A DNA stretch of 63,384 bases, filler included, from Stramenopiles sp. TOSAG23-6 (GCA_900128565.1; 12 parts of 12 records of this genome joined end to end with filler, not necessarily neighbours in it), one strand, 5' to 3'; numbered from the whole stretch's first letter, positions 3,001 to 60,141 are shown. Notes: generated by a model from the sequence alone, not told the origin. Made by a program: numbers and translations.

Positions 3001-6000
3001 TTGAAGCATTACTTTTTGAATTCATAGTTGTCAAATTACTTCCAATAGAAGGTTCGCCTAGATGTTCAAGTTTTTGTGCCAGTACAGCCAATAGCCCAGT
3101 TTCCTCTGGTACAGACCTAGATATAATAGGAAAAAGACCCCAAAGTGCCATTGCATGTTTTTGTATTGAAATGGTATTATCGTTGTTAATAAATGATACA
3201 AGAGCACCTAATAATTTGTTCCATGATGAAAAAACTTCAAAAGAAATTTTAGGATCACACAAAGGGAGGTCCGATAAGACTCCGCGACAATCAAACTTCA
3301 CTAAATGTGTATTTCTAAGAAATACAGAATCTCTTGAATACGTGCCATTTTCACTGTCTGCTCTTTGGATCATAGAGGCGTTCATTTTTACATCCGATAT
3401 AATTTGACCCATCGATGCTCGAATACAACAAAATAAAGGCTCAACGGCCAACGGACCACCAACTAAAAAAAACGATCTAGCTGCTTGAATTCCAGCAGAA
3501 CGACGCACACCACGAGCAGTAGATAAACGTTGTAGATGTTGTAACGACAAAGTGGGCAATACATCAGGAGATGTGATGAATGATTGAATTGCTTCCAATA
3601 TTTCACAGCGATGTTTGAATGTATACAAATTTTCACTTTCTTCTACATATATTTTCTTTACAATAAGATCTTTATCATCATCAAGATAATCATTTTTAGG
3701 CTCTGACCACCAATTATCTATTAAACTATCTAAAAAGGCAACACGCAAAAGAACAGGTTCAATGAGTGAAGATACAGCTGGAGGATGCTCGCCAATATGC
3801 AATTTTGACGTCAAAGTTTGTTTTCGTAAATAAATAGTTTTTTTGACTACCAAAGAAAAGTTCCAAATTTGCATTACAATACTTGATGGTCTTTTTGAAA
3901 TGAGTTCCTCATCATTTTCCTCAGAATTTTCTTTAGCTAATATATTAGAAATTTTNCGGAAGAATCCAACAAGCTGAAAACGTTTCATGGCCAATATGAC
4001 TATTTCTCTGCATAGTCCTTTCATTTCAGAACCACCAAAACGACGTAACCCGAGATTTTCTCTAGAGTGGTTTTTAAACCACATTTCCAACGGACAATTT
4101 CCAGATCGAAATTGAGATAAAAACACTTTATTCTTTTCATCAACATCANATACTTGTTTCTTCTCACTATTAAAACTATTTACATTATTTGATGCATACA
4201 AATCAGGCAACAATGGATATCTCAAGCTATGGCAACACTTTGCCAATGAGATTTGAGTAACACCTTTTTGTCTGACAAAAAAAAGTTCATCATCCACTAA
4301 TTTGTTTATCAAGTTTCTTTCACTATCTATAATAGATGTTGTGGCAACAGATGCCTTGATCATATTATTTATAACACCACTAAAAGCGCAACCCACCGCG
4401 GATTCTAAAAAATCAAATGATTGCTCACCAAATGCACTGATTACTTTACTGTTGCGTGAACTCTTTATATAAGATAATTGTGATGCTAATAACGATAATT
4501 GTGGCAAAGAAGTTACCGAAACATTATCAGATAACTCATCAAAGTGAATGTATTTTGGAAAAATATTTCAAAGAAAATCGTTAGGTACAATTTTTCGTAC
4601 GAAAAATAAATTCGAAATTGAAAAAAAAAATAAAACATACATGCGAAGTACCAAAAGCGCTACACTACAAAATTCAAATGACACTTCTGCAGATCGTATG
4701 AGATTCATAACAGTCACGTTCTTTTTAGTTTCATCACTTAGTTTGTCTTTCGTTTCGGGTGATGTAATATTTTCTACACAATTAGATTGATTTGCGAAAT
4801 CATACTTATCAGAAATATCTACAAGAGATTTCATCATATTTAGAATTTCAGCAACAATTAGTCCAGCAAAACGCACAATAGAGGACACACACGCCAGTTT
4901 GAGAGAACTTTCGCCCCTGAGAGGTATCATTTTTAATAATGTAAATAATATTACACGGGGAAGTCTCAAATAAGAGGAGCATTGTTTTGTGTCTTTTCCT
5001 GTTTTTGCTTCTTTCGATGTTTTGGATACTTTTTCGCTTGTCGTTGTATTGTCAAAATTTCTAACGCTATTCAAAGAAAATTCAAATTCAGAACAAACAT
5101 GCTTCGTATTTGCCCGAATAAGAACTGTAAGAAGTTTGTAGAGATTATCAGTTTCCAATAGATATATCGATTGAGGAATGTTGTTACCTTTTTTCTTATT
5201 TTCTAAAATTTTGTTTTTGTCATAATNTTTTTCCATTGTATCAGAAATCGTCGCAACATCAGATGTACCAGATATTCCATTTTTACTCACGACACGAAAC
5301 CAAGATGTATTTTGGAAAAATATTTCAAAAAACAAATTGTTAGGTATAAAATTTCATACGAAAAAAAATTGGAATTTGAAAAAAAAAAAAACATACATGT
5401 TTTCCCATTGATAAATTTAGAAACCCAAAAAGATTTAACACCTAAAATATCTTTTTCATTCAATTTTGCAGAAACAATTTTTAACCAATGCGGGTTTATT
5501 GGATCTTCGTACGCTGATATAACTGTACCATTGGTAAATTTTGTTTTAGAAGAAGACTTTTTAGATGGACTCGAGCGGACGGTGCTATGAAGTTTTAGAG
5601 TTTTTAGTTTCCATTGGCAAATTTTTGACCAGCCTCCTAACAAAAATCTTAGATCATCCGTTTTCCACCAAGGTTCCATCAGTTGGGATATGTGTTTCGA
5701 TGTAGCATACAATTTAGCCACAGATGCATGTACCATAGGTATTTCAAGTATTTCAGTAATATTTTCAATATTGGCTCGACTACGAATTAAATTAAATTCT
5801 AATTTAGATGTACTACTCGATGATTTTTTACGCTTTTTTGTTTCTAATGGCAAATTTGTTTTTTTTAAAGAAATCTTTGAGATAGAATCTTGACCAATGT
5901 AAAGTAAAAAAATATTTGTTTTAAGTAAAAATTCATTAGGTACAAAATAATTTTGCAAAACATTAAAAGAATAAAATTGAAATATGTGAGAAAACGTACA

Positions 6001-6626
6001 TATATACATTCTCATTCACAACTTTCCGTAAGCTTTCCAATTCTACATTTGATATTTCTGTATTAAAATCAGCTGCGACACAATCCGGAGTCTGCGTAAT
6101 TAATATTCTATATTTACCACAACTATTAATAAACTCCATTATTTTACAACGTACCCATATGTGCTGTTCATTTTGATTATCATCATTATTCATCAAGAGT
6201 TTAAACTCAGCGACTTCATCTACTTCATAGAAATGAAAAGTATTGGATGTAGAAACACTACTATTACCAATAGAAGCAACAGTTTCATTTTCTTCATGAT
6301 TATTTTTAATTATCGATGACGTAACTGGGACTGATTCATTGACTTCTTCAAGGAGACTTCCACCTGGAGGTGGACCAGTCTCAAGACGTATCCAACAATC
6401 ACCATCATTGAATTGAATTTCATTATTACACACTTTTACACTATACTTGACCTGATCATTTTCCAGCCATGTCGCATTCAACCCATCCGATTGTAACACA
6501 ATTCGAGCCCACACCCGAGAGCCTATCTGTGCGTGTCTCACAATGTAATAACGTTCTCCATTGTTTTTCGATCGTGGTGAATGATCTATAAATATACTAG
6601 CGACAGCGACACCATCAATGCCACTA
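54..6626 (-). CDS. Giant protein fragment with UBA-like domain, possibly a HERC/HECT-type E3 ligase (partial at both ends; exons 6000-6626, 5397-5896, 4641-5304, 54-4547)
   Basis: Three track ORFs and a long frame running off the window edge are joined in frame by GT-AT introns. UBA-like AKMLSAMIGMSEAFCELALERSSGNSNQAANWAFEN lies near 220-330. GGLVEHLRVGGRV is reminiscent of HERC-family proteins. The long exon was checked at its ends, not codon by codon. Confidence 0.6.
4548..4640 (-). other. GT-AT intron (93 nt)
   Basis: CGCAT|GTATGT...TACCTAAC...AATACAT|TCAC; contains an in-frame stop; join gives LRIHFDEL. Confidence 0.8.
5305..5396 (-). other. GT-AT intron (92 nt)
   Basis: ACAT|GTATGT...AATACAT|CTTGG; joins ORF 5287..6015 to ORF 4568..5335 (GKTSWFRV). 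Confidence 0.85.
5897..5999 (-). other. GT-AT intron (103 nt)
   Basis: TATAT|GTACGT...TACCTAAT...TTTACAT|TGGT; joins ORF 5963..6541 to ORF 5287..6015 (NVYIGQDS). Confidence 0.8.
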
Positions 6627-6726
6627 NNNNNNNNNNNNNNNNNNNNNNNNNNNNNNNNNNNNNNNNNNNNTTAATTAATTAANNNNNNNNNNNNNNNNNN
6701 NNNNNNNNNNNNNNNNNNNNNNNNNN
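6627..6726. other. Artificial 100-nt contig linker (N run + TTAATTAATTAA + N run); also at 13348, 20052, 26746, 33419, 40090, 46745, 53393, 60040, 61155, 62270
   Basis: Identical six-frame-stop spacer each time; contig lengths never increase (6626, 6621, 6604, 6594, 6573, 6571, 6555, 6548, 6547, 1015, 1015, 1015). Confidence 0.98.
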
Positions 6727-6814
6727 ACAAAAAAATCGAATTTTTTTTTCGTACGAAATTTTGTACCTAACAATTTTTTTTAGATTTTTTTAAAAATATT
6801 TTTCCAAAATACAT

Positions 6815-7167
6815 GTCGAATGCTGATAAAGATATTGGTACATCATTCAATATCCTCGATCCAGATTCTGATGGCATTGCTTCTCTAGCAGAAGTTGAAC
6901 GGGCTGCGTCGTCTGTTTTAAAAGATGTAAATTCGAGGGATATGTACGTTTTTTTTTTTTTTTTTTTTTGTAATTGTTTTTTTCATACGAAATTTTGTAC
7001 CTAACAAATGTTTTAGAATTTTTTTTAATATTTTTCCAAAATACATGGAGAAAGTTATGAAGTTACTTGACCCAGATGAGGATGGTTTAGTTTCAAAGGA
7101 AGAAATTGAAAATATTTTAGATAAACTTAGAGACAAAGAAAACAAAGAAAAACCTCAGGATCCATAA
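6815..7167 (+). CDS. C-terminus of a paired EF-hand protein (exons 6815-6943, 7047-7167)
   Basis: EF loops DPDSDGIASLAE and DPDEDGLVSKEE are joined in frame after removing intron 6944-7046; preceded by a truncated intron 6727-6814. Confidence 0.75.
6944..7046 (+). other. GT-AT intron (103 nt)
   Basis: GATAT|GTACGT...TACCTAAC...AATACAT|GGAG; use of the next AG (7050) gives a stop within four codons. Confidence 0.85.
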
Positions 7168-7412
7168 ATAAAAAGTATCAAAGAAAACACAAAGAAAACA
7201 CAAAGAAAACAAAGAAGAACCAAAATAACCAAAAGAACCAAAAGAACCAAAAGAACCAAATAGATAGGATATGTATTGTATTGTAGTAAAACGATATTTC
7301 CCAGAGTTTTGTTGATTTGTTGAGAAAATATAACATTTATTGAAATTTTTATTGGTCGATAAAATATACTAAATAAGTTTCTATATATTTTTCTATATGA
7401 GATAGATAGAAT

Positions 7413-10400
7413 TTACTTCCCATTGTCAGAATCTATTTTAATTGAAAGCTGTTTTCGAATTTTGAAAGAATTTGTTTTATTTTTTGTTGTTTTTGTTGTT
7501 TTTGTTGTTTTTGTTTTATTTTTTGTTGTTTTTGTTTTATTTTTTGTTGTGTTTGTGTCAATATCAATGATGTTTTCATTATCATTTGTTGTACTTTCTT
7601 TGTAGTCTTTACTTAGTAAGGAAGAAGAAACATCATCTTTGAATATAGCATCTCGTGTTTCATTACTTTTTTGTCTTGCTTTCTCATTCTGAAAATGTTT
7701 TTTATTCTGCTCTCCATGTGTTTTGAAAAAATATTTCAAAAAAAATTAAAAAAATTTGTTAGGTACAAAATTTACTATAAAAAAAAATGTAGACAAAAAA
7801 TTGAAAAAAAAAAAAAAACATACATACACCATATTAGCAGCACTTTGCAAACGTATTAATAGCTTAAACCCAGCAATCCAGTTATCGCGCTCTGTCTCCG
7901 TATAATACACTATATGAAATATTACATCATCTTTTAGTATAATTGACAAATATAAGTTTTCATCAATGTTTCTCACAACCTTGCCTTTTTTTTTTACTTG
8001 TATTTCAGAGAATTCAGGAGATTTTTTTCCCTGGATAATTTGGACAATATCATTCACTGGCATAGATTTATTGTACAAATCTTTGACATTTCCTTTCGAC
8101 CAATGTAAGCACCAACTACTACTACATTGACCAGATGTATCATTTTCAGTTGCGTCAAGATTACTTGGGGCAACCCAAATGTATCTAGAATGAAATTTTA
8201 TTTCTTGACCCATCTTTTTTTCTACTGCGCATCCTTTAAGGATACTTTTCAATGCTTTCTGTTTGCTTTCATTTAATTCGCACAAATTTGTTAAATCTGT
8301 CAAAATTTTTTCCATTTGAATCCTTGGTAATAGAGCTTCAGGATTACACTTCCGTTTATACATTCTCTGTTTTAGTAACCATGAAAACATTCGACTCGTA
8401 GTTTGAGATTTATTTTTGGAATGATTTTTATTCGATGGTTTCGGGATACTACCAGTACTTCCAACAGAATCAGTGCTATCCATACGTTCAATATTTACTA
8501 CATCTTTACAATCGTTACTCTTTATACCTTTAATAATTTTTCCATTTTCGATATTTTTTTTCATAGTAAATTTTGTACCTAACAATTTTTTACTTTCATT
8601 TTCTGTATTTTCTGTATTTTTTGTATTTTCTGTATTTTTTGTATTGACGACACTATTTGGACAATTTTTATCACTTGTACTACCCGCAGTATCAGTTGTA
8701 GAAATATCTGTAGTTAGTGCAAAAAAACTTTTATCTTTTCTTGTAGGAGTCTTTAACGTACGAAATCTACTTGCAACTAAAGACCAACGATCTCTAGCTT
8801 TTCCTACAGCTATTCGTCCAAGGCATGTATTGTGAAAAAATATTTCAAAAAAAAAAAATATCGTTAGGTACGAATTTTTCAAAAAAAAAAAACTTGGAAA
8901 AAAAAAATTGAAAAAAAAACCTACACTGTTGACAGACACATGAACCACCAATATTACACGAAATACTACATGAAACCTTACCGTGTTGACTACAAAAGAC
9001 ATCATTGCACATATAACAATAATGTACTCGCTTACCCCAAAATTTAAAAGAAACGTTGCATGTATTACAGACATTGGCTACAAACTGAGGGGAGTCAGGA
9101 ACTAGAGGATCGGATTTCAGTGATGCTGTTTTTCTATTACGAATCGTGTAATAATAATAACCAAATCTCACGGTCAATAGTATAGACATACAGAAAACAC
9201 ATAATTGTATCACTTGAAAAGTCATTTCAATCGATGTTGCAATGAAATTAAAAATTGCCCAAGGATTAGTTGACGAAATTTCTTCCATTGAGATTATTGT
9301 GTCATTAGGGTTAGGGCTATCTTCAACACTAATCGATCCTTGGGTCAAAACATTTGAAATACTATTCCCTGATTGGCATATTTCAGATTCTCTGCGTTCA
9401 GTGTTTCTTTCAACACTTCCAGGAATGAAACATTGTTTTTCGGGTGGATCACATTCATCTACTCGTGCTGTATCGCATGAAGTCACCATTGTCCAGTCAC
9501 TACCACCGGCCATATTCCACACTTGCACCCGAAAGTCGTACGAAACGTCTGAAGCTAAATTTTTACACAAAAACTTTAAACTTTCTGTTCCCTTTACTGA
9601 TAGCACACGCCACGTGGCATTACTTGGATCATCATCAGAATCAACTTGGACTCTATAAGTGTGAAGGGGTAAACCATGAGGTTTCCGAGATGGAGGAGTC
9701 CATTTAAGCAAAATTTCACCGCATTTTTTAGGAATACAGACAAGCGAAGCAGGTTTTGCTGGAACATCAGCAATTCCCATAGATCGAATTTTGATTCCTC
9801 GAAGTAATTTTATACGGTCTAATTTTGACTCAATTTGAAGTTCTTCTTTTAATGCTAATCCATTTTTTTCCATCAAAAGTGGAAAATCAAATCCAGTTAT
9901 GGCATGATTTCGAAATATTTCAGCATATTTTGGGAGCTGTACAGCAAACTTCACCCAGTCTACGACTTTCTCTACGGTCAATAAATGTTCTAAATTAGTC
10001 ATAAATGTCCTAACATCAGATTTTCCAATATTTGAATCCGAGTCATCTCTACTTTCAAGATTTTCAAGCATTTGTGATACAGCATGATCAATTTCTTCCG
10101 CTTCATCAAAATTACTTCCACCTAACGCGGCCACAATTTCTCGAACTTCATGCTCCTCAATTTTCCCATTACTATCCGTGTCAACAGAGTCAAAAACTGA
10201 GTCACTTGCATTCATTGAAGCGAGGAGCCGATCTCCAGGTATATTAGTTACAGTTCCCAACGTGGATTCAATACATAAATATAGACACATTATTGATAGG
10301 ATAAAATTATAGTTTAAAGAGTATACACCTAAATGACGTTGACATTGTTTCTTTTCAAATGGGTTTGTCATTATTCCAAGAGATCCAATAATTTCGTCGC

Positions 10401-11731: not shown

Positions 11732-13257
11732 ATGCCAAGTGGAAGGGGTACATTATCAACACCTGAGACAGACGTTGAAACCAAGGAAAACTTCGCACGT
11801 GTAAAGGATAAATTGACATCTCCTGATGTTGCTCTACTTGCTGCTGCAGCTGCGGCAATCAGTTCAAGTCCAGAACCACAAGCCGAACCTGATAGTGCAT
11901 TTGATAATGCTTCTAATGATTTTGAAGATAACATGTTACCTCTCCCACTACCAATCCGAATACATCCTCCACCAACACCCTCTTCAGGATTATTATCACC
12001 AAAGCGGACATTTTTAGCATTAGATCTTGGCAGTGCGAGAGAGAGTAGAGGACGATTAAGAAGTCTTTCTCAATCAAAAATAGGAACTATTCCACCAAGA
12101 GATAGTCGTTTTAGTATAAAGAGGAAGAAAACACCACCACAAAATATGACTTCATCAAATGATATTTTCCGTAAAAAAACAAAAATGCAACGATGTATAG
12201 TTCCAGTTGATGTAAATTTTCGTATTACAAAAGTACGGGAAATAAATGCTATTCGAAGTCAAGTCGATTTAACTTTTACTGTACTTCTACGATGGCTTCC
12301 GAATGATGTTTTCTTTGAAAAAGACGAAATTGAAATGCGAAAGATAGGAAAGAATAAAATATACAGAAAACACGTACGTTTTCATCATGAATTTTTTACC
12401 GTACACTTTTTTCATACGAAATTTTGTACCTAACGAAGTTGTTTTTACTAAAAAAAAAATATATTTTTTCACAATACATTCTTCTAGCATGAATGTTCTT
12501 CATGAAGATATAGATAAAGAAGATGACGATAATGTACTTTTACATAGTCAGAATAGTGCGTCAAATGCTCAAAATGATCAAAACAAAGATTTGATTGATC
12601 AGAAAAATGAGATGACTAGGAATACTATTGACAATTCGACTAAAAGTAAAGTTCTCTCTGAGGATAAACAGACAATTATACCTTCAATTTCGAATAGTAA
12701 AAACTCAGCCAAGGGTAAAAATAGTGGATATGATGAAAAGATTTTGACTGATCGATCTAGCTCTCATGCCTCTGTAATTTCTTCAGTGTCTGTAACGCCG
12801 CCAGAATACGCAACTGTTGCAGTTATGTATGTTTTTTTTTTTTTTGTATGATTTTTTTTTTCGTACGAAATTTTGTACCTAACGATATTTTTTTTTTTGA
12901 AATATTTTTCCAAAATACATGTACCTTTTGACTCTTCTAATACGCTAAATGAAAAACAACTAAAGAAACTTAATCATGACGGTGGTGCGTGGTGGATACA
13001 AAAAGCTGCAAGAGCTGTGGTCAATTATTTGTTTTATAAGAAAAAAACAGAAAACAAAAAAAAGACAATGATTTTAAAACAATTTATTTCTGAAGATACA
13101 GAAATTTATGATCAAAAGGAAAACAAAATTGTAGCAGCTGTAACTTTTTCCAAACAGTTATCCAAACAGTTACCTCTATCAATCAACACATTACAAGGAT
13201 ATATTCATCAAACACACGTTGATTATAGAGCCGGTGGGTATTACATAAACAAAGCAT
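11732..13257 (+). CDS. Hypothetical protein(s); exons 11732-12373, 12480-12826 and 12921-13257 (the last may belong to another gene)
   Basis: Open frames separated by GT-AT introns. VPVDVNFRITKVREIN...TFTVLLRW is weakly reminiscent of a Cys-loop channel N-terminus. There is a phase mismatch at the second intron. Confidence 0.45.
12374..12479 (+). other. GT-AT intron (106 nt)
   Basis: CAC|GTACGT...TACCTAAC...AATACAT|TCT; joins ORF 11720 to ORF 12387. Confidence 0.8.
12827..12920 (+). other. GT-AT intron family copy (94 nt) with mismatched flanking phases
   Basis: Full consensus is present, but the phase-2 donor meets a phase-0 downstream ORF. Confidence 0.6.
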
Positions 13258-13528
13258 GTATGTTTTATTTTTTTTCAATTTTTTATCTACTTTTTTTTTT
13301 CATACGAAATTTTGTACCTAACAAATTTTAGTTTTTTTTTTTGAAATNNNNNNNNNNNNNNNNNNNNNNNNNNNNNNNNNNNNNNNNNNNNTTAATTAAT
13401 TAANNNNNNNNNNNNNNNNNNNNNNNNNNNNNNNNNNNNNNNNNNNNAAAATATTTGAAAAAAAAAATCGTTAGGTACAAAATTTCGTACGAAAAAAAAT
13501 TCATAGTAAAAAAAAAATTAAAACGTAC

Positions 13529-18041: not shown

Positions 18042-19996
18042 TCACCTGAGCCCGAATCGTTTACTATTGTACATTTGTTGTTGGGCACCCCAAGCTGTTT
18101 TCCTACCTTTTGGTTTCTCTCTTTTACTGTAGAAACTTTTAGAGACTCTTGAGGATACTTCACTAGAGCTATTACGATGTTTGTTGCGGCGCTGTTGTCT
18201 CCGTGCAGCTGCTGATGCAAGTTTAGCTCTACGATCTGCAATAGCACTCGCTCTCCTTGCTGCAGCTTGCTTCGCTCGAGAAATATGGCTTATTGCCTCT
18301 TTCCTCACTGGTTTTTTATCACTACCTCTACTATTATGTCTCCTGGAACGAATAATTCCGATGTGGTTATGGTTACTTTTTTTTTGTCTTGTATTATAAT
18401 TATTGGCAACTTTTCTCCTGTTAAATGTTCTACTATTATTCGTATCTCTCACACTTGTACGAGTGTTCTTAGAAGATGTACGAGACTTTACCCGATTAGC
18501 CCTGATGCCACCGTCGGTTCGCTTTCTAGTTTTTATCTTCTCAATCTTTTCTACACGTTCTTCCAATTTTTCAATGACTTCATTATACAAAGTTTCCATT
18601 TCATTTATTTTGTCTCGTCCAACATAATCTTTTAAAACTCTATTTTTTATTTCAAGAATATCATTTTGTCTCATTTCTTCGGCTTCTTCCATTTTTTCCG
18701 CGATTCCGTTGCACTTGTTCAACTCCGTCTGGAGTTTCTTTATTTCTTCAAGTAAAGCACCCACTCGAGCATCTTTATCCTTTTCTTGTTCTAGTAATTG
18801 AAGTCTTGTTCTGGAAAATTCCTGTAAAGTTTCCAAGTGTTCTTGCTTCTCCTGTTTCAGTTCAAAGTCCAAGTGATTGTACTCAGCAATAGCATCCTCT
18901 GCGCGGGCATTAGCCTTGGCTTCATTCTCTTCTGCTTGGCGCCGAATTTGGTTTACTACAATATTGTGATTTTCTAATATAGATGATTTTTCATCACTCC
19001 AAATTTTCTTTACTTCACGCATTGTTTGATTTGACTTTCCAATTCCAGTCAATGAAAAAACTCCTCGACTATTATTTTTACCTTTTTCAAAGTTTGAAAC
19101 AATATCTTCCAATTTTTGGACCCGTTCTTCCGCCAGTTGAGTACGGTTTTGTTGATCAATTAATTTGGATTCAAGTGTTTCACTGCGCTCTTTCATTTCT
19201 GAAATAAATTGCTGGGCTTTGCTAAATTTAATCTCTATTTTCCGTGATACCGTTTCAGCTATATCGACTTTCTTCTGTAAACCTTCATATAAACTCTGGT
19301 AATCAACAGTGACATGCAGTTTTGGCAAAGATGCAATTTGTTTTGCTTTCTGACCAAATTCAAGCGTGCGCAATGTTTCACTAGCGTCATTAACATCAGG
19401 GCTAACCGTTATTACAAAGGCAGTATTGTTATTGCCTTGCAAAGTATCTTGTAATAATCGAGTTAACTTTGAATCTCTGAAAGGAATTTGCTCTCGATGC
19501 GTACTCGTAGTGTGCAAAATACAATTTTGTAGAGCTGAAATTGACAAATTTACAGACTTGAGCGGAGTAAAGTTAAAGTGTCCTCCTCTTTGTTTTGTCC
19601 CTTTTGGATTCTGTTCTGATCCAGCAAGATCCATAAAAGTAATTTTACTTGTATAAATTTTAGGCTTGATATTTTTTCTAGGATAAGAAGAGTTGCCTAT
19701 CTTTCTCTTTTTGATAGTGATAGTTAATATAGTGTGAAAAAATATTTCGAAAAAAAATCGTTAGGTACAAATTTTCGTACGAAACAAAATAAATTAAAAT
19801 TTTGAAATTGCAAACGTACATATAGTGTGACACCTTGCTTTTTCAAACTCCATTTCTGCACACATTATTTCATTATTTCGTTGCCCTTTGAGTAAACATT
19901 GAAAACATTCCGCTGTTGTTGATACAGGAAATTCTGAGACGCCTTCAACAAAAACTCCATTGGTCTTATTCTCTCGAATGCAAAGTGTCGAATCGC
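18042..19996 (-). CDS. Kinesin motor protein, 5' partial (exons 19996-19820, 19726-18042)
   Basis: LCIRE..GVFVEGV, DLAGSE, IPFRDSKLTRLLQDTLQGN, ETLRTLEFG, then coiled coil and basic tail. Confidence 0.92.
19727..19819 (-). other. GT-AT intron (93 nt)
   Basis: No AG inside; two in-frame stops; join gives RCHTILTITI (kinesin RSHxIxTI motif). Confidence 0.9.
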
Positions 19997-23071: not shown

Positions 23072-23135
23072 CAATGATGAAATTTTTATTTTTTTCCATT
23101 CCATAGTATTATGATCATCAAAAAAACTTAAAAAA

Positions 23136-42639: not shown

Positions 42640-45600
42640 ATGGGACAATCTCTTGGTAAAAATGTCTTGGTTTTTCAATCAGGAAAATTTCACCATCCCG
42701 GTGGAATTTTTCCTTTTGTTGAAGGAAAAGATTGGGACGAAGCAAAGGCGAAGCACTCAGCTTTCATTCGCGCGGTACAAAAAAATCTTTTAAATACAAC
42801 TTTCTTATCCAGCATATTAAAGGGCGATGCTGCATTTGTTACATCTGCGATTGAATATTATCAAAATTCATCTGATGAGTACACATCGGAACATTCTGTA
42901 AACAGTGCACACCTCAGCGCAAAATTAGATGCGGAGCATCTTCTCGAAGGTCTTTCTAGTTCACGCCCTCCGAGTTCTCCATTTGTGTCTACCTTACAAC
43001 GTCGATTAATGGCTCTCTTGGCACTAAATCCGCTTATAAAAGCAGAGAGAAAATCTGTGGGCCAACGATACGTGAAGCGTACTTTAGGTGCACCTGCAGC
43101 TACAGTTACTACAACAGAAATCTGTCTATCCACTATGTCTGCACTCGTACAACATTTAAGCTTTGAAAAATCACAGCAATATACTTTATCACACACAATC
43201 AATGTTCTTGAAGATGCGTTGTCCCAATACAAACCATTGTCTTTATTTAAAGATTGGTGTATGTTTTACTTTTTTTCAATTTCGAATTTATTTTTTGTAC
43301 GAAGTTTTGTACCTAACAAATTTAAGTTTTTTTTTTTTGAAATATTTTTCCAACGTACATCACCGCCTCCAGCAGCTCCTGAAACCTCACTTTGTTTGGA
43401 TCCAAAATGGGTTCGCTCAACCGTACAAGACTCAAATTTCCCAGCAACACGCGCTATAGATGGCCGAGGTCGAGATTCTTACTGGAAGACATGTATGTTT
43501 TATTTTTTTTTTCAACAAAAAAAATCGATTTTTTTTTCATACGAAATTTTGTACCTAACAAATTTTTTAAGATTTTTTTTTGAAATATTTTTCCAAAATC
43601 CATATTCATCTCCAGCTAATGCAGAGTTCTATATAACTCTAGAAAAGCCTAAAAAAATTGCATCTCTAGTGATTTTTTGGGCACAGGATGACTATGGCAG
43701 TCTTTGGGCACCCGAAAGTTGGAGTATCAGCTCTTCTTCGGATGGAAAAACTTGGAAAAAAGTATCAACTTTTTCAAACAAACAAACTATTTCCAGAATT
43801 AAAGCTTCACAACAACGTCTTCCTTTGAAAGGATTGTTCACTCGGTACATTCGTATTTCATTCCATGGATTTCATTCTTTCAACTCAGAAGGGGCGCGAT
43901 ACTATGGAATTTGGAGAATGTCGGTAAATGTTGCAAAACCAGGTATACTACTGAATAATAGTAAAAGTGTAATCGAAGACCTTCAAAAGTGGTTACTGCG
44001 TGCTTCCAAGCAGTCTAAATTAAGATCAGGCGCTTTATCGTGCATGTTTTCTTTATATATTGCTTCGGGTTCTCTGCAATCTGCTCTCATGTTAGTTTTG
44101 GCTCTTCTACGAGGCGATCCGTTCATAAAAAAGGGGGATATCTATGAAAATAACCCTCTCGCTACCCGCAAAGGTTCAAAGAAATTAAAGTGTAAAGATA
44201 CCAATACCAAACCCAACGCAGGAGGTAAAGTTATCATCTCAGCATCTACTAGTCCAAAATCAAATCCATTGACGAAGACTTTGATCTGTAAAACAGAAGC
44301 ATACTTCAAAGATGTTTTTCAGAGGGAACGTAATGCTAAGAATAAATATGGGTATCTTGGTAAGAATAAGTCTATAGCAACCGCCTGTTTTGATAGAAAA
44401 TGTATGACTCGTTCATGTCTTGAGTTATCAAATTCGAATACTCGAGTGCACTCCAAGGAAGGATGTCATGATTCATATGTTTTGCTCAATATGGGTTTTG
44501 AAACTGGTCGGTGGGCATGGGAATTTGAATTGGCGACTCAAATTAGTTTTGGTGACGAATGTGTCGCATTAGGTATTGCGCGAAAGCCTGTTCATTCGGC
44601 ATCGTACCAAAGTAGTAAAGAATTTTGGATGTATCGTTGTTACAACGGGGAACTGTATGAGCATGGTCTGAAGAAATCACGGCGATGTGATCCTATTCAT
44701 GCGGGCGATACGGTTCGTTGTTGTCTAGATATGTATGCTGGGACACTCTCGTATAAAATAAAAGGTGGGAAATCGCAAGGCGTCGTCTTTGAAGGAATTA
44801 CGGGTAAAGTATGGCCTGCAGTGAGCATATACAGTTCTCAACAAGGAGTTACTTTTATTGCTTTAGAACAATGCGATGCAAGTTATACATCTTCTTGTAT
44901 GACGGAGCTGTCAGCATTGGACCCACATGCGCTTCCAGGTTGTGGTGAAATTTCAAGTACAAATAATCAAGAACAAGTCACATCGATCGGGAATTCTCCA
45001 AAACGTGAATCATTGCCATTAGATTTTCCATCTCGATCGAGAACTAGTAATATTCGCAATCACCAAAGAAATAATCAGGAGTTTTGGTTTGGTCATTTAC
45101 GTGAAGGTCTCCGTCATGGCGAAGCTGTTTTCTTTGACCCTGACATGGAGTGTTTTTGGTATGGGACATGGATTGATGGTAGACAACATGGCTTAAGTAT
45201 ACGAAAAAAAATAAAGAAAGGTAAAACGCCGGACGTACAAATAGCTGCTTTTGCAAATTTTACCACCTGGCCGAATTTAGATGCAATTTCGGATGATGAT
45301 ATAGAAAATAGTATCATCTGCTTATTCAATTATGGTCGTAATATTCGACGAGCCACGAGCAGAGATATAGAAAGCCAAATCGATTTTATGTCACCAAAGT
45401 GGCGACGTTTCTGTGGCTTTTCTGAGAATATATATAGTGGTATGAAGTACAATACTGATATTACTGGCCAACTATTTGAAAATGTCTCAGGTATAGATGA
45501 ATTTAATATCTCTTTTTCAGATGAATTTAATGTTTCTCACGAGGAACAATATCTTGCTAGTCGAATATTACTTTCACTTGCGCGTCTTTCCAGTGCAAAC

Positions 45601-46687
45601 TCGATTGGCTCGGACAAGATCAATAATCATAGCAATATGATTGGTATTAACTTGGATGAAGAATATTGTTTTGAGCCGAGTCTTTCGACCTTTAAAATCT
45701 TGTTACCTCTTTTAACAATGATTGTTCGACGTTTGGATTGTTTGAATAGTTATATAGCCGTTGCAACCGCGAGTAATCAAGAAATAAATGAAAAACAAGA
45801 AGAAGAAAACGGCAATCAAAATGAAAAGACAAAATTCAAAGTAGAAATCAAACGTATTGAGAATCTAATACGTTCGACACTCCGACTATTAGAAAGTAAC
45901 TTTGATCGCATTGTTGCTTTAAATATTGATCCAGTCGAGGTTGATTTACAATGCAATAATGATTACAACGACAAAAAAGATGTGGACAAAAATGTATGTT
46001 TTATTTTTTTCAAATTCGATTTTTTTTCGTACGAAATTGTGTACCTAACGATATTTTTTTGAAATATTTTTCCAAAATACATCCGTCGTCCAACCCAAAT
46101 GAAGTAATGGAAAAATTCCACAATATATTAGAACAATTACTTGTAAAGCCATATCCACATATTTTACAATATAGAGCAGCAAAAGTAATTTCATCTGGTT
46201 TACTTTTCTTATATCCAACGCCAAATCAACGAGCTGAGTTGTTACATTCTTTGATTGTACAACAAGCATCTACCCCCTTTAAGCCTGTAAGTGCTCGTTA
46301 TGTCCTTCTTGTCCAATTACTTCGTCGATTCAGCAATACATCAGGAATAGTTACTCTCCTTCCCATAAATAGCGACGATGTGAATACGCATAGACCAAAA
46401 AATGTAAAAAAACTGTCTTTTCCAATTATAAAACTTTTATCGCAAGTATTTGAGGTTGTCGTATCAGAAAGCTTGAAAGAAATCAATGATAATATTGAGT
46501 ACTTTCAAAATCAAAAAGATGGTAATACAAAAAATAGAAATGATTCTACAAGTGAGTACGATAAAAACGGTAACTTTAACAGAACCATTGGAATAAATTG
46601 CACTGATAACTCAAGTAATAACCTATGGTCGACCACACTAGTAAGTAAGGCATTTACTTCCGAAATGCTAGATTATGAAGAGTCCGT
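42640..46687 (+). CDS. Giant protein with F5/8-type C (discoidin), SPRY and MORN-like segments, likely E3-ligase-type (exons 42640-43258, 43361-43492, 43604-45993, 46083-46687; 3' partial)
   Basis: RAIDG..SYW, SSDGKTW, TRYIRI; GRWAWEF..VALGIA..GDTVRCCLDMYAGTLSY..WPAVS; WYGTWIDGRQHG. Confidence 0.72.
43259..43360 (+). other. GT-AT intron (102 nt, stopless, read through by the ORF track)
   Basis: T|GTATGT...TACCTAAC...CGTACAT|CA. Confidence 0.8.
43493..43603 (+). other. GT-AT intron (111 nt, stopless, read through by the ORF track)
   Basis: ACAT|GTATGT...AATCCAT|AT; removal gives a compact discoidin segment SYWKTYSSPANAEF. Confidence 0.8.
45994..46082 (+). other. GT-AT intron (89 nt)
   Basis: No AG inside; the next AG (46104) is followed by an in-frame TAA; the AT end joins both ORFs. 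Confidence 0.88.
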
Positions 46688-46844: not shown

Positions 46845-47818
46845 TGTGTATGATGATGTATGTTTCAGATTTCAATTTTTTTTTTTTTTTTTTTTTTTTA
46901 TACGAAATTTTTTACCTAACCAAAAAAAAAATGTTTTTTTTTTTTTGAAATATTTTCCCAAAATACATTCTTGCCACTGTTTTATATTATTATATTAATT
47001 TAAAAGGTGCTAAAAAAGATTATGGAGATACTGTTAGAGGTATCCAATTAGCTGCAGCAAAGAAAGCTTTATTAGCCCTTAGAAATAAAGATATTAATGA
47101 TGATCGACCAGAACATTCAAAAAACTGGCGGCCACAATTACTTGTTTTAGTGAAATTAGTAGAAAAAAAAACACCTAACCCTAACCCTAACATTGATTTG
47201 AATACAGTTAATTTTTCAGAGTATTCCAAAAATCAAAATGGTAATGAAAATGTAAAAAATAAAAGTGTTTTTACAGTGAGTAGACCAGCATTATTAGATG
47301 TCGCACAAATGATGAAAAAAGGACGAGGATTAACGATGTACGTTTTCAAAAATTAATTTTTTTTAATTTTTTTTAATTTTTTTAATTTTTTTTTTTTTAC
47401 TATGAAAATTTTGTACCTAACAAATATTTGTACTACACTTTTTTTTGACAATACATGATTCGTTCTTTTATACATGGTAGTGTTGTTACTCCTCATGATA
47501 ATGAACATAGACGTCCTGCGGCTATTTCATCATTAAATACTGCAGTAACAAAAGCAAAGATTAATGGATTTGTTGGTGTTACTGTACGTTTTATTTTTTT
47601 TTCAATTTTTTTTTCGTACGTAATTTCGTACCTAACAAATTTTACAAAACACAAAATTTTAATTTTTTTTTCAATTTTTTTTTCGTACGCAATTTCGTAC
47701 CTAACAAATTTTACAAAACACAAAATTTCATAATACATGTGGCAAGAGAATTTAAAACTGGAATGGATTGTATTCTTCAAGAAGTCGGCTTAGCAGGACT
47801 TACACCAAATGCTATAAT
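46845..47818 (+). CDS. SLC12 cation-chloride cotransporter fragment (exons 46845-46857, 46969-47337, 47457-47583, 47739-47818)
   Basis: KGAKKDYGDTVRG, HSKNWRPQLLVL, KKGRGLTM, KINGFVGVTVAREFKTGMDCILQEVGLAGLTPNAI. Confidence 0.88.
46858..46968 (+). other. GT-AT intron (111 nt)
   Basis: GAT|GTATGT...TACCTAAC...AATACAT|TC; little upstream context to test the frame. Confidence 0.75.
47338..47456 (+). other. GT-AT intron (119 nt)
   Basis: No AG inside; join GLTMIRSFIHG. Confidence 0.85.
47584..47738 (+). other. GT-AT intron (155 nt) with tandemly duplicated branch module
   Basis: ACT|GTACGT...AATACAT|GTG; the next AG would give a stop. Confidence 0.88.
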
Positions 47819-47919
47819 GTATGTTTTAGTTTTTTTTTCAAATTCGATTTTTTTTCGTACGAAATTTCGTACCTAATGATTTTTTTAGATTTTTTTTTAA
47901 ATATTTTTCCAAAATACAT
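47819..47919 (+). other. GT-AT intron (101 nt) joining two apparently different genes
   Basis: Full consensus (branch motif TACCTAAT); in frame. Confidence 0.75.
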
Positions 47920-48983
47920 GATAGTCAAAGAATGGCAAAAAGACATAGAGTTTACACCATCACCTGATGATACTGTATTGGGAATGTTAATGGCTCTTTT
48001 ATTTTCAACACCATCACCAGAGTCCATACAAAGACTCGAAACAATGCATGTTCACTTTCACAATATACCTAAATGGTGGCGAAATTCTTTACCCCGAAAC
48101 CAACCCATTGTGGGATTGCATTTACGACTTTTTGATACACAATCAACAAGTCCAAAATATGTACCTTTTTTATATTATACATTTCAAATTTATTTATTTA
48201 TGGTAGTACCAAATTGTATACCAAATATTTTTTTTTTTTTAACAAATTTCGATTGTCTCATACTTTTTTGTTGTACCTAATGATTTTTTTACGAAAAAAA
48301 ATAATATTTTACACAATTCAAGGTGGAGACAAACTAGGCCATTGGAAACCTGAAGCACGTGACTGGAACCTAGATGTTACTTCATTTATTGATTGTGCAG
48401 TTGAGTTATTAGATGAAGTGTATAAAGTTGACCGTCGACGGCCAATTATTCATCTTGCCACAGATAGCATTCAGTATCAGAGTGTAATCCAACGAAAGTT
48501 ACACGGACGAGGAGACGTTATTTGGTTGAGCAATCAAATAGTTCATACAACGGCAGAGAGCAAAATAAGTCCTGATAATTTAAATTCTGCAATATTAGAT
48601 GCTGCTTTAGATTGGTGGTTACTATCGGAAGTCGATCATATTCTGATAACTGGGGACTCCACGTATTTCCTAACTCTAACCCTAAAGCATTTTTTACTTG
48701 TGATACTTTCATTATTTTTTCATGAGAGACATATTTGTTGTATATACGAAACCACAGGTACTCCAGAACAGCATTACATCGAGGGTACTCCCGAGATGAA
48801 TCCTCCAGAACAAAAATCGCTTATCGTTGGGTCCAATGTTGCTGGTGGGAGGGTGATACAATTTGGGATAAAGATACAGTAACAGTAGATTTGCCGGGAA
48901 AGAAAAAAGAGCCTTTGTCGACTAGAAATTCTTGTAGGAAGCAATCAGTTCCAAGTAACCTCATGAATTATGCAGGGCCATAA
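47920..48983 (+). CDS. Fucosyltransferase-like C-terminal part (exons 47920-48160, 48322-48662, 48758-48983)
   Basis: IVGLHLR, IHLATD, ALDWWLLSEVDHILITGDSTYSRTA correspond to motifs I-III of alpha-2/alpha-6/O-fucosyltransferases. Confidence 0.7.
48161..48321 (+). other. Family intron apparently ending in AA (161 nt)
   Basis: TAT|GTACCT...TACCTAAT...CACAATTCAA|GGT; the adjacent AG (48322) gives a stop after four codons. Confidence 0.6.
48663..48757 (+). other. Canonical GT-AG intron (95 nt)
   Basis: AC|GTATTT...CCACAG|G; join gives STYSRTA. Confidence 0.8.
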
Positions 48984-53337: not shown

Positions 53338-53544
53338 ATGTATTTTGGAAAAATATTTCAAAAAAAAAACTTAAATTTGTTAGGTACGAAATNNNNNNNN
53401 NNNNNNNNNNNNNNNNNNNNNNNNNNNNNNNNNNNNTTAATTAATTAANNNNNNNNNNNNNNNNNNNNNNNNNNNNNNNNNNNNNNNNNNNNTACGAAAT
53501 TTTGTACCTAACGATTTTTTTTGAAATATTTTTCCAAAATACAT

Positions 53545-56428: not shown

Positions 56429-56758
56429 TTTCGTTTTGAGTGATTTGGTCGATGGCTGGTTGGTGGAGCAAAAAAGAGACCAAAAAACAGAAGGACAACA
56501 CGAACAAAACGCCTGGAAGAGGAAAAAGACATAAAATTCGCTGAAATCATCAGTGAACCGGGTAACAACTTTATAAAAAGTCCTTTTTCTAACTAAATGT
56601 CTGGGACCTTCCCACTCCTAAATATCTTCAGAAGCCAATCAGGATGACAAAAACGAACTCTCGGTCGTTTATCAGAAAAAGGAATATATTTAATACCCAA
56701 TCCTCTGAGTACATCTTCTTTTGTACTCAAAGTGATGACGTGAGAGGCATCACAAATA

Positions 56759-57912
56759 TCAGTGACAAACTTTGCTCCAATTTTTTTTTGCTTTTGTCAT
56801 CAAGTTATGAACATTTTCCACATTAAATAAAAGTATTCTAGCACCTGAGAGACATCCACTTGGATATAAAGGCTGAATTTTCTGACCACATTCTTGACAT
56901 TCGAAAGTCCAATGAACCCAGGGACAAGGATGTGGAAGTTTAAAAAGTGTGTTACATTTTGGACATGTATTGTGAAAAAAACATTTAAAAAAAATATTTT
57001 TTTTAATCCGTTAGGTACAAAATGTCGTACGAAAAAACTTTCAAAAAAAAATAATTTTGAAAATGTACATTTTGTAGAAAAATGCAACGATTTTTCCTTA
57101 TCTCCACGAATGGGAAGAGCTGAATGAGACAGAGCATTTTTTTTGTTTCCATCTTCATTATCAGAGTCGTTCTTAACTTTTTGTATAGGAGGAGACGACA
57201 TTGGACTTAACAAATTTTGAGTCTCAGACATTGGACTTGACAAATTTTGAGTCTCAGACGATTCATCTGAAACTTTTTGTGGTTCGTTCTTATTATTTGT
57301 TACGACTATAGGCTCAGGTTCATCTTCAGTATCTGATGCATCACCCTGGTCTGTAATGTCCGTCGAATTAATGGTCTTCAAATTGTTTGAAGATTGAGAA
57401 CTTGAAACAGATGGTGATGTACTAGAGTTCGTCCACATGATGGCTGTGGCTTGAACTTTTGCCATAGCAGCCTCTTCTTTGACTAAACACTTTTTCAATT
57501 GTTCCATTGCAAGATTTTGATTCTGCCGTATGTTCTTTATTTGTACACTCATATGAGCCGCCTTTTGGAAAGAATCTGCAGCATGTATAATATCCTCAGT
57601 TGTCGATAGTGGATGAACACTAGAACTCAATTGCTTCGCGTAGTCTAAACAATCTCGGAAAGCTTGTCCAGTTTTCTTCCAAATGGTACTAGCTTTTGCT
57701 TCGTCCTCTTTTGCACGAGCCACTTTCTCTTGAGCATTTGCCAATTCCTGAAATGCGGCCATGGCATCCAGCGCACTGGGTGCTCGGACAGTCAACATAT
57801 CCTTTTCAAGATGATGAGTGACTGTCTTTTGCTTCTTCCGAGCTTGGGTTTTTGGTTGAATGACATCGTCTAAAAGACGCTTCGTTGGACGAGACATGTG
57901 TGCACATGACAT
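56759..57912 (-). CDS. Coiled-coil protein with C-terminal C4 zinc ribbon (exons ~57912-57069, 56964-56759)
   Basis: Spliced frame gives TKCPKCNTLFKLPHPCPWVHWTFECQECGQKI. Confidence 0.7.
56965..57068 (-). other. GT-AT intron (104 nt)
   Basis: AAAT|GTACAT...TACCTAAC...CAATACAT|GTCC. Confidence 0.85.
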
Positions 57913-58256: not shown

Positions 58257-59950
58257 ATGGCTAAGAAAGGGGGTACAACTACAATTAAGCTGGATTCTAG
58301 TATTGATTACTGCGAAAAAACTGAAGAATATCTCATTGAACATAAAGTGGAAAGTAAAATTAATGATATTTTGAATCGAACTCTACGAGAGCAACCGGAC
58401 GACCCAATTGGTTTTATTGGGGCGAAGTTTGCTGATCAAGCTTTAAGTTTAAAAGGTATCCTTAATGTTGATGTTCATACTTCTGTTGATGGATATGGTA
58501 GACCTGCTGTAACTGCACAATTAAAAACCTCACGGGGTACCTTTGTTGCTTCTGTATGCTGCGCTTCTGTAGAGCAGTCTGCAGTATTAATGCCTCTTCC
58601 TGCAACCAAAGAAGAGGGCAGCAATCTTGATGATGGTAACATTCGACCTACTTCAGCATTTGATTCTGGGGATGTTGATGAAGAAGCCAGTTGGCCAAGT
58701 GTATCTGTTCCTCCTTTTCATCCAAACATGGAAAGGATTGCACGAAAAAGAGCACTAACAGAAGCCATCAATTTTTTTAAGAAGAAAGAGGTATTGAGTT
58801 CTATACTTGGAAAAGATCCTGAAGCTGATCAAAAAAGCATTGATGATGCTATTACAGATCTAAGGAATGAATATGTAGATGATGAAAGAACCCGAGTCTC
58901 GGAATTTAAGCATGACGAAGATAACGTAGTTGAAGCAAAAAAAACAGCACTTGAAGATGGAAAAGTTTCTGATGGTGAAGAAAAGGGAGATGACAATGAC
59001 AACAACAAGTCTGTACCATTATTTGATTTGTCCATTAAAGGAATCTCAAATGCATATGATACTCTACACAAAAAACAATATGCAATGAACGAGACTTTAG
59101 AGGTAGATCTTATGCTTCGCCATGTTTCCCTTGCTATATCTATTGCTTGCGCAAGAGCTGGTGCTGCTGATAAACAATGTCCACTATATAAGCATATTGC
59201 CTCCCTCGCTGATAAAGCAGATGAAATATATTTACCCGTCCCAGTGGTGGGTGTTATAAACGGTGGCATTTTATCCTCGAGTGTGTTACCATTCAAAACT
59301 GTATATATTATACCAATGGTTCAAGACTCATTTGCAAATGCAATAAAAGACGCTACCTCTGTCGATTCAAAAGTTCGGGCAGTTGCAAAATCATTTGGTA
59401 CTGTAACTGAATCAGATTGTGGTGCTATTGAAGTTGCGTTTACTTTGACAGAAACATCACAAGATGAAGAATCTGACGGAATTGGTGCATTGGTCTCTGA
59501 GAAGTGTATGGATATTGTATTTAAAGCATTAGTTGAGTGTAATGCACCTGAAGAAGGTGTGTCAAAAGAAGTTGAAGAAAAAGACACCACTGCGGATGAT
59601 AATACAGAAAATGCAGAGGAGGAAACAGAAAATGTAGAAGTTGAAGTTGATAAGTTGAAACTTGTTGGGGGCATGAGAATGGCGTTGGGCTGCTCCGCAC
59701 AAACATTGTTTTCTCCGCCAACTGAACAAGATATCCGAAGTGGACAAAATTTAAGTGGAAGTTATAATATGGCATATAAAATTGAGACTAAAGAAGACAA
59801 AGAAAATGAAACTATTAATGAAGAAACTCTGGGTAAAATATACAGAAAATATATAGAAAAATACCCAATAGTAATGATTGAGGACGCATTTGAATCTCAG
59901 GGATGGGTTGGCTCTTCAGAAATTGTTGAAGAGTTTGGTAGAGATATCAT
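58257..59950 (+). CDS. Enolase-like (ENO4-type) protein with N-terminal docking domain, 3' partial
   Basis: YLIEHKVESKINDILNRTLREQPDDPIGFI; DGYGRPAV; AISIACARAGA..PLYKHIA..LPVP..VINGG; KYPIVMIEDAF; ends at donor 59951. Confidence 0.82.
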
Positions 59951-60141
59951 GTATGTTTTATTTTTTTTCAATTTTTTGTCTACATTTTTTTTCGTACGAA
60001 ATTTTGTACCTAACAAATTTAAGTTTTTTTTTTGAAATANNNNNNNNNNNNNNNNNNNNNNNNNNNNNNNNNNNNNNNNNNNNTTAATTAATTAANNNNN
60101 NNNNNNNNNNNNNNNNNNNNNNNNNNNNNNNNNNNNNNNAT

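What the first reader, a model, noticed from the sequence alone, without database searches (positions are those of the whole stretch)
4548..60039. The GT-AT introns look like a recently expanded introner/MITE family
Seen: copies in unrelated genes are nearly identical apart from homopolymer lengths (compare 4548-4640, 43259-43360 and 45994-46082). The ends form a short inverted repeat ATGTAT...ATACAT. The upstream exon usually ends in AT, often CAT or TAT, duplicating the intron's last bases. Most contig ends fall inside a copy, implying high copy number. Established: introner elements in Micromonas and Aureococcus are TIR/TSD transposons whose target duplication can supply a splice site. Inference: the AT acceptor may originate as a target-site duplication. 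No transposase is visible in this window.
Basis: partly seen in the sequence, partly recalled or inferred. Interest (0 to 1): 0.78.

Follow-up and report, generated by a model that had tools for sequence, protein, structure and literature searches.

The report
Mobile introns with a retuned U1
A marine protist's genes are interrupted by thousands of copies of one roughly 95-base intron that ends in AT instead of the near-universal AG, and the cell's U1 splicing RNA has changed so that it matches these introns letter for letter.

Summary
The repeat is real and is spliced. In 0.85 Mb of this MAST-3-type stramenopile genome, cutting from GT to the family's 3' end best kept the frame in 215 of 236 confident copies. 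Of 199 frame-validated copies, 161 end in AT and 7 in AG. Contigs of one poly(A) run skip exactly 3 of 6 predicted introns in a test locus.

'Nearly identical MITE' overstates it: median identity is 76%, the inverted repeat only 3-4 nt, and no transposase with these ends was found.

New here: the only U1 snRNA found begins AAACGUACAUG, the exact complement of CAT|GTACGTTT, including the exonic T. U2, U5, U6 and the Prp8 alpha-finger look ordinary.

The scan noted this family before on other DNA of this genome (at least 8 notes); a word search found no note on U1. Verdict: an introner of unknown mobiliser, combining Fritillaria-like AT acceptors with an Entamoeba-like co-evolved U1.

The parts
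4548..4640 (-). complete family intron, GT-AT, exon ends CAT
   Evidence: frame open 237 codons on both sides at offset 0, against 10 and 8 at +1 and +2
5305..5396 (-). complete family intron, GT-AT
   Evidence: open 206 v 6/15
5897..5999 (-). older family intron, GT-AT
   Evidence: read by eye; joins two ORFs in frame; not in the scripted set
6944..7046 (+). complete family intron, GT-AT
   Evidence: open 39 v 15/6
7716..7823 (-). complete family intron, GT-AT
   Evidence: open 100 v 33/10
8545..8590 (+). family core fragment lying antisense inside a coding frame (approximate limits)
   Evidence: core at 8564-8583 inside minus-strand ORF 7746-9077
8825..8924 (-). complete family intron, GTAGGT donor, exon ends GT, intron ends AT
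   Evidence: open 358 v 9/51
12374..12479 (+). complete family intron, exon ends AC, intron ends AT
   Evidence: open 123 v 5/8
12827..12920 (+). young copy whose long flanking frames do NOT join at offset 0 (possible mis-join across near-identical copies; unexplained)
   Evidence: open 22 at offset 0 v 135 at +2
19727..19819 (-). complete family intron in a kinesin gene, ends TAT
   Evidence: open 70 v 15/15; Pfam kinesin
33718..33909 (.). rearranged mixed-orientation cluster of family pieces upstream of ORF 33894-34718; not a clean intron
39756..39848 (-). complete family intron, AT-AT termini
   Evidence: open 70 v 8/19
43259..43360 (+). complete family intron; the AT-AC register would create a stop here
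   Evidence: open 223 v 31/33; register test
43493..43603 (+). complete family intron, GT-AT
   Evidence: open 301 v 36/11
45994..46082 (+). complete family intron, GT-AT
   Evidence: open 221 v 10/23
46858..46968 (+). complete family intron 13 nt from a contig start (upstream frame untestable)
47338..47456 (+). complete family intron, GT-AT
   Evidence: open 91 v 25/18
47584..47738 (+). family intron with an internally duplicated core, exon ends CT
   Evidence: open 45 v 17/11
47819..47919 (+). complete family intron, GT-AT
   Evidence: open 84 v 21/14
48161..48321 (+). old, longer family intron; 3' end uncertain by a few bases
   Evidence: read by eye
56965..57068 (-). complete family intron, GTACAT donor
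   Evidence: open 67 v 53/46
1..53 (-). half copy at a contig end (5' half)
6727..6814 (+). half copy at a contig start (3' part)
13258..13347 (+). half copy at a contig end
46688..46744 (+). half copy at a contig end, GC donor
53493..53544 (+). half copy at a contig start (3' part)
59951..60039 (+). half copy at a contig end

Best explanation
A non-autonomous intron-making element (introner), GTAYGTTTT...TACGAAATTTTGTACCTAAC...CAATAC, about 95 nt, has inserted thousands of times over a long period. It duplicates two target bases, mostly AT in a CAT|G-like context. It carries its own donor and branch site (CCTAAC, 30-57 nt from the end). The downstream copy of the duplicated pair becomes the intron's last two bases, so excision restores the original mRNA exactly. 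The ordinary U2-type spliceosome removes it: U1 has changed at positions 2, 5 and 9 and now pairs with CAT|GTACGTTT, and the acceptor is chosen without AG.

SHOWN: family, sense orientation, frame restoration, skipping in RNA contigs (3 introns), 2-nt end covariation, U1 sequence. INFERRED: mobility, duplication at insertion, use of this U1, branch position, lariat chemistry. UNKNOWN: the mobilising enzyme, and whether U1 or the element changed first.
For: Frame: offset 0 is best in 215 of 236 copies. In an earlier 176-copy subset the sense frame was longer than the antisense in 164.

Homology: excision restores MAAS and FIPWGP of gamma-tubulin, which a public model labelled MAST-3 (P0005) lacks. 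Of 53 internal AGs, 45 would break the frame.

RNA: run X4 contigs skip 98, 93 and 105 nt at L029 3526-3623, 4584-4676 and 8249-8353. No equivalent register gives GT-AG.

Duplication: 25 of 38 non-AT ends match the exon end, against 3.1 expected (maximum 11 in 20,000 permutations). The inverted reading gives 0 of 25. Ends match in 76 of 83 copies with a neighbour at 90% or more, and in 72 of 113 older ones.

Register: AT-AC creates 2 stops. Upstream -1 deviations are enriched at wobble positions, 11 of 84 v 5 of 115, p=0.03.

U1: 9.2 of 11 Watson-Crick pairs on average, against 7.0 for the Rfam-consensus U1; better in 193 of 199 donors. It lies in a U5-U2-U1-U4 cluster.

Selection for a final T: matched TT+GT number 19, their reverse complements AA+AC number 1. 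Antisense and intergenic fragments exist.
Against: No transposase or long element with these ends was found; the ends of the one Helitron were not examined. No empty site was seen in a close relative or strain: the nearest gamma-tubulin DNA was 76% identical, and the joined-form-in-DNA table was not given.

The RNA support is three low-depth contigs (2.3-5.5) from one run of one study. Three of six introns were not bridged in the listed rows, the tables were cut, one X3 contig reads into an intron, and intron-less DNA in the library is not excluded.

Gamma-tubulin junction 2 gives K where 79 of 79 listed homologs have M; a cut one base to the left would give M. About five young copies do not join their long flanking frames. 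Full-length intergenic copies are nearly absent, odd for a randomly inserting DNA transposon. U1 scores 54.1 bits, below Rfam's 69.5 cut-off (E 3e-12), and its expression was not tested.
Confidence: 0.75

Rival explanations
1. RNA-based spread: excised lariats are reverse-spliced into other mRNAs at U1-compatible CAT|G sites and copied back to DNA, as proposed for fungal introner-like elements. No DNA transposase is involved.
For: Full copies are almost all sense and inside coding sequence. There is no true TIR and no partner transposase. The target consensus equals the U1 complement.
Against: Reverse splicing carries the intron's own last two bases and predicts no locus-specific match, yet 25 of 38 non-AT ends match. 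Antisense and intergenic fragments occur. No RVT_1 match in the assembly (incomplete assembly). Folding z-scores of five window copies are weak, -2.6 to +0.1.
Confidence: 0.1
2. Capture at staggered DNA breaks: copies of an abundant intron are pasted in by end-joining repair at breaks with 2-nt overhangs, and the retuned U1 filters which survive. This is a mechanism for the same outcome without a dedicated transposase.
For: It explains a 2-nt duplication without a TIR. The genome is rich in interstitial telomere repeats, which hints at templated insertion at breaks (102 v 1 control in 0.93 Mb).
Against: Both ends are precise and the duplication is always two bases; repair would usually give ragged ends (general knowledge). 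Discrete young subfamilies of 40, 19 and 8 copies suggest master elements.
Confidence: 0.1
3. Old introns whose similarity comes from strict splicing signals or gene conversion.
For: Much of the conserved sequence is splice signal. A control that keeps the signals and shuffles the rest still reaches 69%. One non-family cathepsin intron also needs an AT end.
Against: Non-signal arms are 71% and 68% alike, against 59% and 57% shuffled; linked copies 77.3% v unlinked 76.3%. Constraint does not predict matched TT/TT and GT/GT ends. None of 80 other gamma-tubulin loci has an intron-sized insert at the three positions (best 80 of 540, biased to intron-poor genes, so weak).
Confidence: 0.04
4. Not RNA introns: DNA-level eliminated sequences, or assembly artefacts.
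For: The assembly shows amplification-type artefacts (a 6.6-kb perfect palindrome), and contigs break at copies.
Against: Strict sense orientation, donor and branch motifs, a complementary U1, and skipping in a poly(A) library.
Confidence: 0.01

Closest known systems
Introners, Chrysochromulina type (PMC9860276, passages); also Micromonas IE1 (PMC11282704, parts 1-2 of 5)
   Same: [quoted passage not shown] The covariation test used here is the paper's own TSD criterion.
   Different: There the duplication is 3-4 bp and, in the Micromonas example, supplies AG. Here it is 2 bp and supplies AT, TT or GT, and AG in only 7 of 199.
Non-canonical introns of Fritillaria borealis and F. pellucida (PMC13326754: abstract, section 21, first part of section 26)
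   Same: Transposon-derived, U2-spliced; a YAY triplet at both the exon end and the 3' splice site; 3' AT is the commonest end (34% and 44%).
   Different: An unrelated lineage, so convergent. F. borealis main classes begin AG and its U1 5' end is unchanged, with duplicated U2AF. Here donors stay GT (about 92%), AT ends are 81%, one family dominates and U1 is altered.
Co-evolved U1 of Entamoeba (ACAAAC) and Mastigamoeba balamuthi (ACGUAC) (bioRxiv 10.1101/2022.06.08.495308, passages)
   Same: The U1 pairing region is changed to match an atypical donor. The ACGUAC core here equals the Mastigamoeba variant, and the extra A pairing with +7 recalls Entamoeba.
   Different: The passages read report changes opposite intron positions only. 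Here C9 to A faces the last exon base, and the change goes with a mobile family and a non-AG acceptor.
Amoebophrya invasive non-canonical introns (abstract listing; review PMC11282704 part 2)
   Same: A majority of non-canonical repeated introns with direct repeats at the borders.
   Different: 3-5 nt TSDs, TIRs and apparent loss of U1 there; U1 is retained and matched here.
ISL2EU DNA transposons (PMC4482050, passages)
   Same: 2-bp AT target duplication.
   Different: Their target is A|AT|T and they have TIRs. Here the context is C|AT|G, other dinucleotides are duplicated too, and no HTH_Tnp_4 match was found.

Membership tests
Introner (intron-generating element) | many similar introns in non-homologous genes, similarity running end to end | tested here: met
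Introner (intron-generating element) | removed from RNA, restoring the coding sequence | tested here: met
   3 of 6 predicted introns skipped exactly in X4 contigs; frame test; homology
Introner (intron-generating element) | positions are lineage-specific gains (empty sites in relatives or strains) | tested here: inconclusive
   0 of 80 distant gamma-tubulin loci interrupted at three sites, biased sample, no close relative
Introner (intron-generating element) | locus-specific target-site duplication (present in a subset of families) | tested here: met
   covariation at -2 and -1, none at -3 or +1
MITE / TIR DNA transposon | terminal inverted repeat of 6 nt or more (criterion of PMC9860276) | tested here: not met
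   3-4 nt only
MITE / TIR DNA transposon | autonomous partner with the same ends | tested here: inconclusive
   Harbinger and pogo-like elements have other ends; no TIR found at three further DDE loci; assembly incomplete
ISL2EU | A|AT|T target and HTH_Tnp_4 + DDE transposase | tested here: not met
   -3 is C in 59 of 132 and +1 is G in 58 of 132 AT sites; no PF13613 match
Helitron (A|T insertion, no TSD) | fixed element ends without duplication | tested here: not met
   intron end varies with the exon end; ends of the genome's Helitron not examined
U2-type spliceosomal intron | GT donor pairing with U1; branch motif pairing with U2; major snRNAs present | tested here: met
   U1, U2, U4, U5, U6 found; pairing counts
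U2-type spliceosomal intron | 3' YAG acceptor | tested here: not met
   AG in 7 of 199
U2-type spliceosomal intron | lariat formation at the branch A | not testable with these tools
   needs lariat reads
U12-type AT-AC intron | AT-AC register with the U12 donor motif and minor snRNAs | tested here: not met
   register creates stops and loses an invariant Phe; no U6atac match (control silent, so weak)

The most novel reading that the evidence does not exclude
An invading element with a 2-nt AT duplication has rewritten this lineage's splicing code from AG|GT...AG to AT|GT...AT. U1 changed at the position that reads the last exon base, the acceptor is set by branch distance and the family's 3' motif rather than by AG (perhaps without U2AF1), and the rule now also serves introns outside the family.
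Probability: 0.5. Interest if true: 0.87.

Novelty: new variant of a known kind. Interest (0 to 1): 0.76.

Why it matters
It is an independent case, far from tunicates, of a major spliceosome working mostly without the 3' AG. In the papers I could read it is the only one where the U1 5' end is matched to an invading intron family, down to the exonic base. That turns the question of how spliceosomes adapt to intron invasions into a two-component test (U1 plus intron), and gives natural substrates for asking what the terminal AG is needed for. In practice, GT-AG gene models for this lineage delete conserved residues at every copy (shown for one gene).

Tried and rejected
Core motif in viral contigs: 0 matches. 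Core in 80 metagenome gamma-tubulin loci: 0.

Partner element: the PIF/Harbinger on C2432 has 28-nt TIRs starting GGCC with TAA flanks, and the pogo-like element on C439 has TA flanks and other ends. Both carry a core-like motif inside, but neither has the intron's ends. No CACTA, HTH_Tnp_4 or RVT_1 match (not proof of absence). Long elements with family ends in about 0.9 Mb: none. Of 184 5' ends, 13 lacked a nearby core and most are chance coding matches; of 121 3' ends, 2 lacked one.

Standard U1: the 12-mer gave 3 hits against 2 control, and none is a U1. U2AF1: not found by a recalled zinc-finger motif, nor among the CCCH loci read (one hit on C452 not read); inconclusive in an incomplete assembly. 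The Prp8 alpha-finger region is human-like.

A TA-duplication reading was rejected because conserved proteins lose no residues at junctions. The FTHFS junction did not separate registers. A wobble test pooling -2 and -1 was not significant (p=0.37); only the -1 test was.

Runs X1-X3 gave no listed joint at the predicted introns, and their high depth over intron bodies cannot be read as copy number or expression. Parts of L029 without cover show nothing. RNA folding gave no consistent signal.
Full report
Setting. The window is 12 contigs joined by N spacers, from a 21.1-Mb, 6,236-contig eukaryote assembly. Its gamma-tubulin exon is 92-94% identical to its best public hits, one labelled MAST-3, so I call it a MAST-3-type stramenopile. 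All counts come from the window plus fetched stretches: 0.68 Mb and 0.85 Mb onward. This is not a random sample. It is mostly the largest contigs, plus hits chosen by likeness to the first copy, which enriches young copies.

The element. The consensus of 16 window copies is AT|GTATGTTTT, a T run, TACGAAATTTTGTACCTAAC, a T run, then GAAATATTTTTCCAAAATACAT|G. Median length is 97 nt at 19% GC. The core has 9,744 matches in the assembly against 2 for the control, so several thousand copies after allowing for redundancy. In one search, 406 core clusters fell to 340 after removing duplicates and those near ends or gaps; 236 had both ends confident. The 3' score ignored the last two bases and the 5' score ignored the exon, so the dinucleotide counts are not built in.

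It is an intron. Cutting at the called ends gave the longest joint open frame in 215 of 236 copies. In the earlier subset the sense frame beat the antisense in 164 of 176. The 199 copies kept as validated (30 or more codons open, offset 0 best; 37 dropped) have termini GT-AT 148, GT-GT 13, GT-TT 12, AT-AT 8, GT-AG 7, other 11. Most of the 37 dropped copies are still sense copies beside short exons. About five young ones, including window 12827-12920, do not join their long frames and may be mis-joins. The putative branch A lies 30-57 nt from the end; 45 of 53 internal AGs would break the frame. In gamma-tubulin, excision restores VMAAST and FIPWGP as in P0004 and P0006, whereas the public model P0005 lacks 3, 5 and 7 residues at the three junctions.

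RNA. A search with L029 listed 8 runs, each holding 5-13% of its words; four were laid. Contigs of poly(A) run X4 skip 98 nt (3520 to 3619, with 6 letters of slack), 93 nt (pieces 4528-4581 and 4675-4794) and 105 nt (pieces 8354-8468 and 8062-8248). These are the predicted lengths and places of 3 of the 6 introns. Two end in AT and one in GT; no equivalent register is GT-AG. The other three were not bridged in the rows shown, X1-X3 listed no such joints, one X3 contig runs into an intron, and depths are 2.3-5.5. Intron-less DNA of a strain cannot be excluded, but that would itself be an empty site with a single dinucleotide.

Register. Because the ends repeat, most cuts can slide. Sliding two bases left (AT-AC) creates 2 stops among the 199 and turns an invariant Phe to Val. 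Sliding one base left creates no stops. Against it, upstream -1 departures from T cluster at third codon positions (11 of 84 v 5 of 115, p=0.03), as expected if that base is exonic, and U1 pairing places the cut before G. For it, gamma-tubulin junction 2 would regain an M seen in 79 of 79 listed homologs; that loop is already two residues longer than in relatives. This remains open for that intron.

Duplication. The exon ends in AT in 132 of 199 copies (background 9.7%). Where the intron does not end in AT, the exon end matches it in 25 of 38 (TT 11, GT 8, AG 5, AA 1), against 3.1 expected. Covariation is confined to -2 and -1, and an inverted reading explains 0 of 25 in the earlier subset. 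This is the TSD criterion of PMC9860276 (passages). Matches fall from 76 of 83 in copies with a neighbour at 90% or more to 72 of 113 in older ones, as expected for duplication followed by decay. Matched TT+GT (19) far outnumber their reverse complements AA+AC (1), so survivors are filtered for a final T or for AG (inference).

Age and class. Median identity is 76% (control keeping the signals: 69%), the nearest-neighbour median 89%, with subfamilies of 40, 19 and 8 at 85%; linked copies are no closer than unlinked. The inversion is 3-4 nt, so 'MITE' fails. Transposase searches found Harbinger-type, pogo-like, two DDE_3 and one Helitron locus, none shown to have these ends. None of 80 other gamma-tubulin loci (48 of them 3.5 kb or longer) has an intron-sized insert at the three positions. 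They are the best 80 of 540, favour intron-poor genes and are at most 76% identical, so this is weak.

The spliceosome. U5, U2, U1 and U4 lie in one cluster and U6 lies elsewhere. The U2 branch-pairing region, U5 loop 1 and the U6 ACAGAGA box are standard. U1 aligns over the full model (54.1 bits, E 3e-12, below the 69.5 cut-off) but starts AAACGUACAUGG where the Rfam consensus has AUACUUACCUGG. The three changes face donor +7 (T in 97%), +4 (C or T in 95%) and exon -1 (T in 89%). Mean pairing is 9.2 of 11 against 7.0, and better in 193 of 199 donors. No standard U1 was found. The Prp8 segment matching human 1383-1632 is nearly identical except one patch of about 14 residues. A U2AF2-like gene is present; U2AF1 was not found, which is inconclusive. 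A crude screen found 105 intron-like gaps with the core and 27 without, most of the latter noise or decayed copies. One non-family cathepsin intron needs a TAT end to give the single residue between aligned positions 32 and 34; its neighbour is GT-AG.

Comparison and novelty. It works like a Chrysochromulina-type introner (donor carried, acceptor from the TSD, no TIR), with the AT acceptors of Fritillaria (PMC13326754, sections 21 and 26) and a co-evolved U1 like Entamoeba and Mastigamoeba (bioRxiv 2022.06.08.495308, passages). Six literature searches listed no report of such introns in stramenopiles or of a natural U1 C9A change; the library lacks most subscription papers. In PMC9860276's supplement the word 'Stramenopiles' occurs only in the list of surveyed genomes (file cut). 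It is absent from 12 of 14 supplements of PMC12130899. PMC5778133 has two passages on introns, neither on unusual ends, and PMC12614181 has none. PMC12621601 (passages) describes a variant U1 in one diplonemid that is not matched to its non-canonical introns. Earlier notes of this scan describe the same family on other contigs; word searches for U1 found none, though only short note texts are indexed.

Verdict. Observation partly confirmed, interpretation partly supported. Real non-AG spliceosomal introns about 0.93; introner with a 2-nt duplication 0.75; TIR-MITE membership not met. New variant of a known kind, interest 0.76.

Noticed in passing
window 20152-26745: The whole contig is a perfect inverted repeat (3,399-nt arms with spacers), so the U-box/SEL1-like gene appears twice; 61255-62269 and 62370-63384 are duplicates. 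Probably amplification or assembly artefacts.
   Followed up: partly
window 9290-9315, 47174-47192, 61987-62065 and genome-wide: Interstitial telomere repeats are common, also inside coding frames where they read as NPNPN: 102 12-mers against 1 control in 0.93 Mb.
   Followed up: partly
L123 (G000:C1146:9-645): U5, U2, U1 and U4 genes lie head to tail within 640 bases, a compact snRNA cluster.
   Followed up: yes
L087 502-3610 (G000:C2432): An intact two-ORF PIF/Harbinger-like element with 28-nt TIRs and TAA flanks carries a 26-nt match to the intron core between its convergent genes.
   Followed up: partly
L091 about 5850-9660 (G000:C439): An intact pogo-like DDE_1 element (1,080-codon frame, TA flanks) has a core-like motif about 40 nt inside its left end; related ends occur on C10 and C2000. 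Whether the intron core derives from it is unexplained.
   Followed up: partly
L207 1108-3069 (-): U2AF2-like protein whose two RRMs both resemble RRM1; by recall, the Trp motif that binds U2AF1 seems absent. Not tested.
   Followed up: no
L097 (minus-strand offset 7556): A family copy with both ends intact but the central core and branch motif deleted.
   Followed up: no
L034 (plus-strand offsets 7482-7678): Two family copies lie back to back with no exon between them, as if one inserted at the other's end.
   Followed up: no
window 10787-11170 and 56093-56617: Ribosomal protein genes L31-like and S26-like (named by recall) are intronless, and family introns sit in genes with low codon bias (median 0.2 v 0.47-0.63).
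   Followed up: partly
L119, L120 v L118: Redundant contigs of the gamma-tubulin gene differ near the first intron's 3' end (TAT v CAT), at a contig end, so possibly an assembly effect.
   Followed up: no
L227 (G000:C336): A Helitron-like ORF of 1,909 codons; ends not examined.
   Followed up: no
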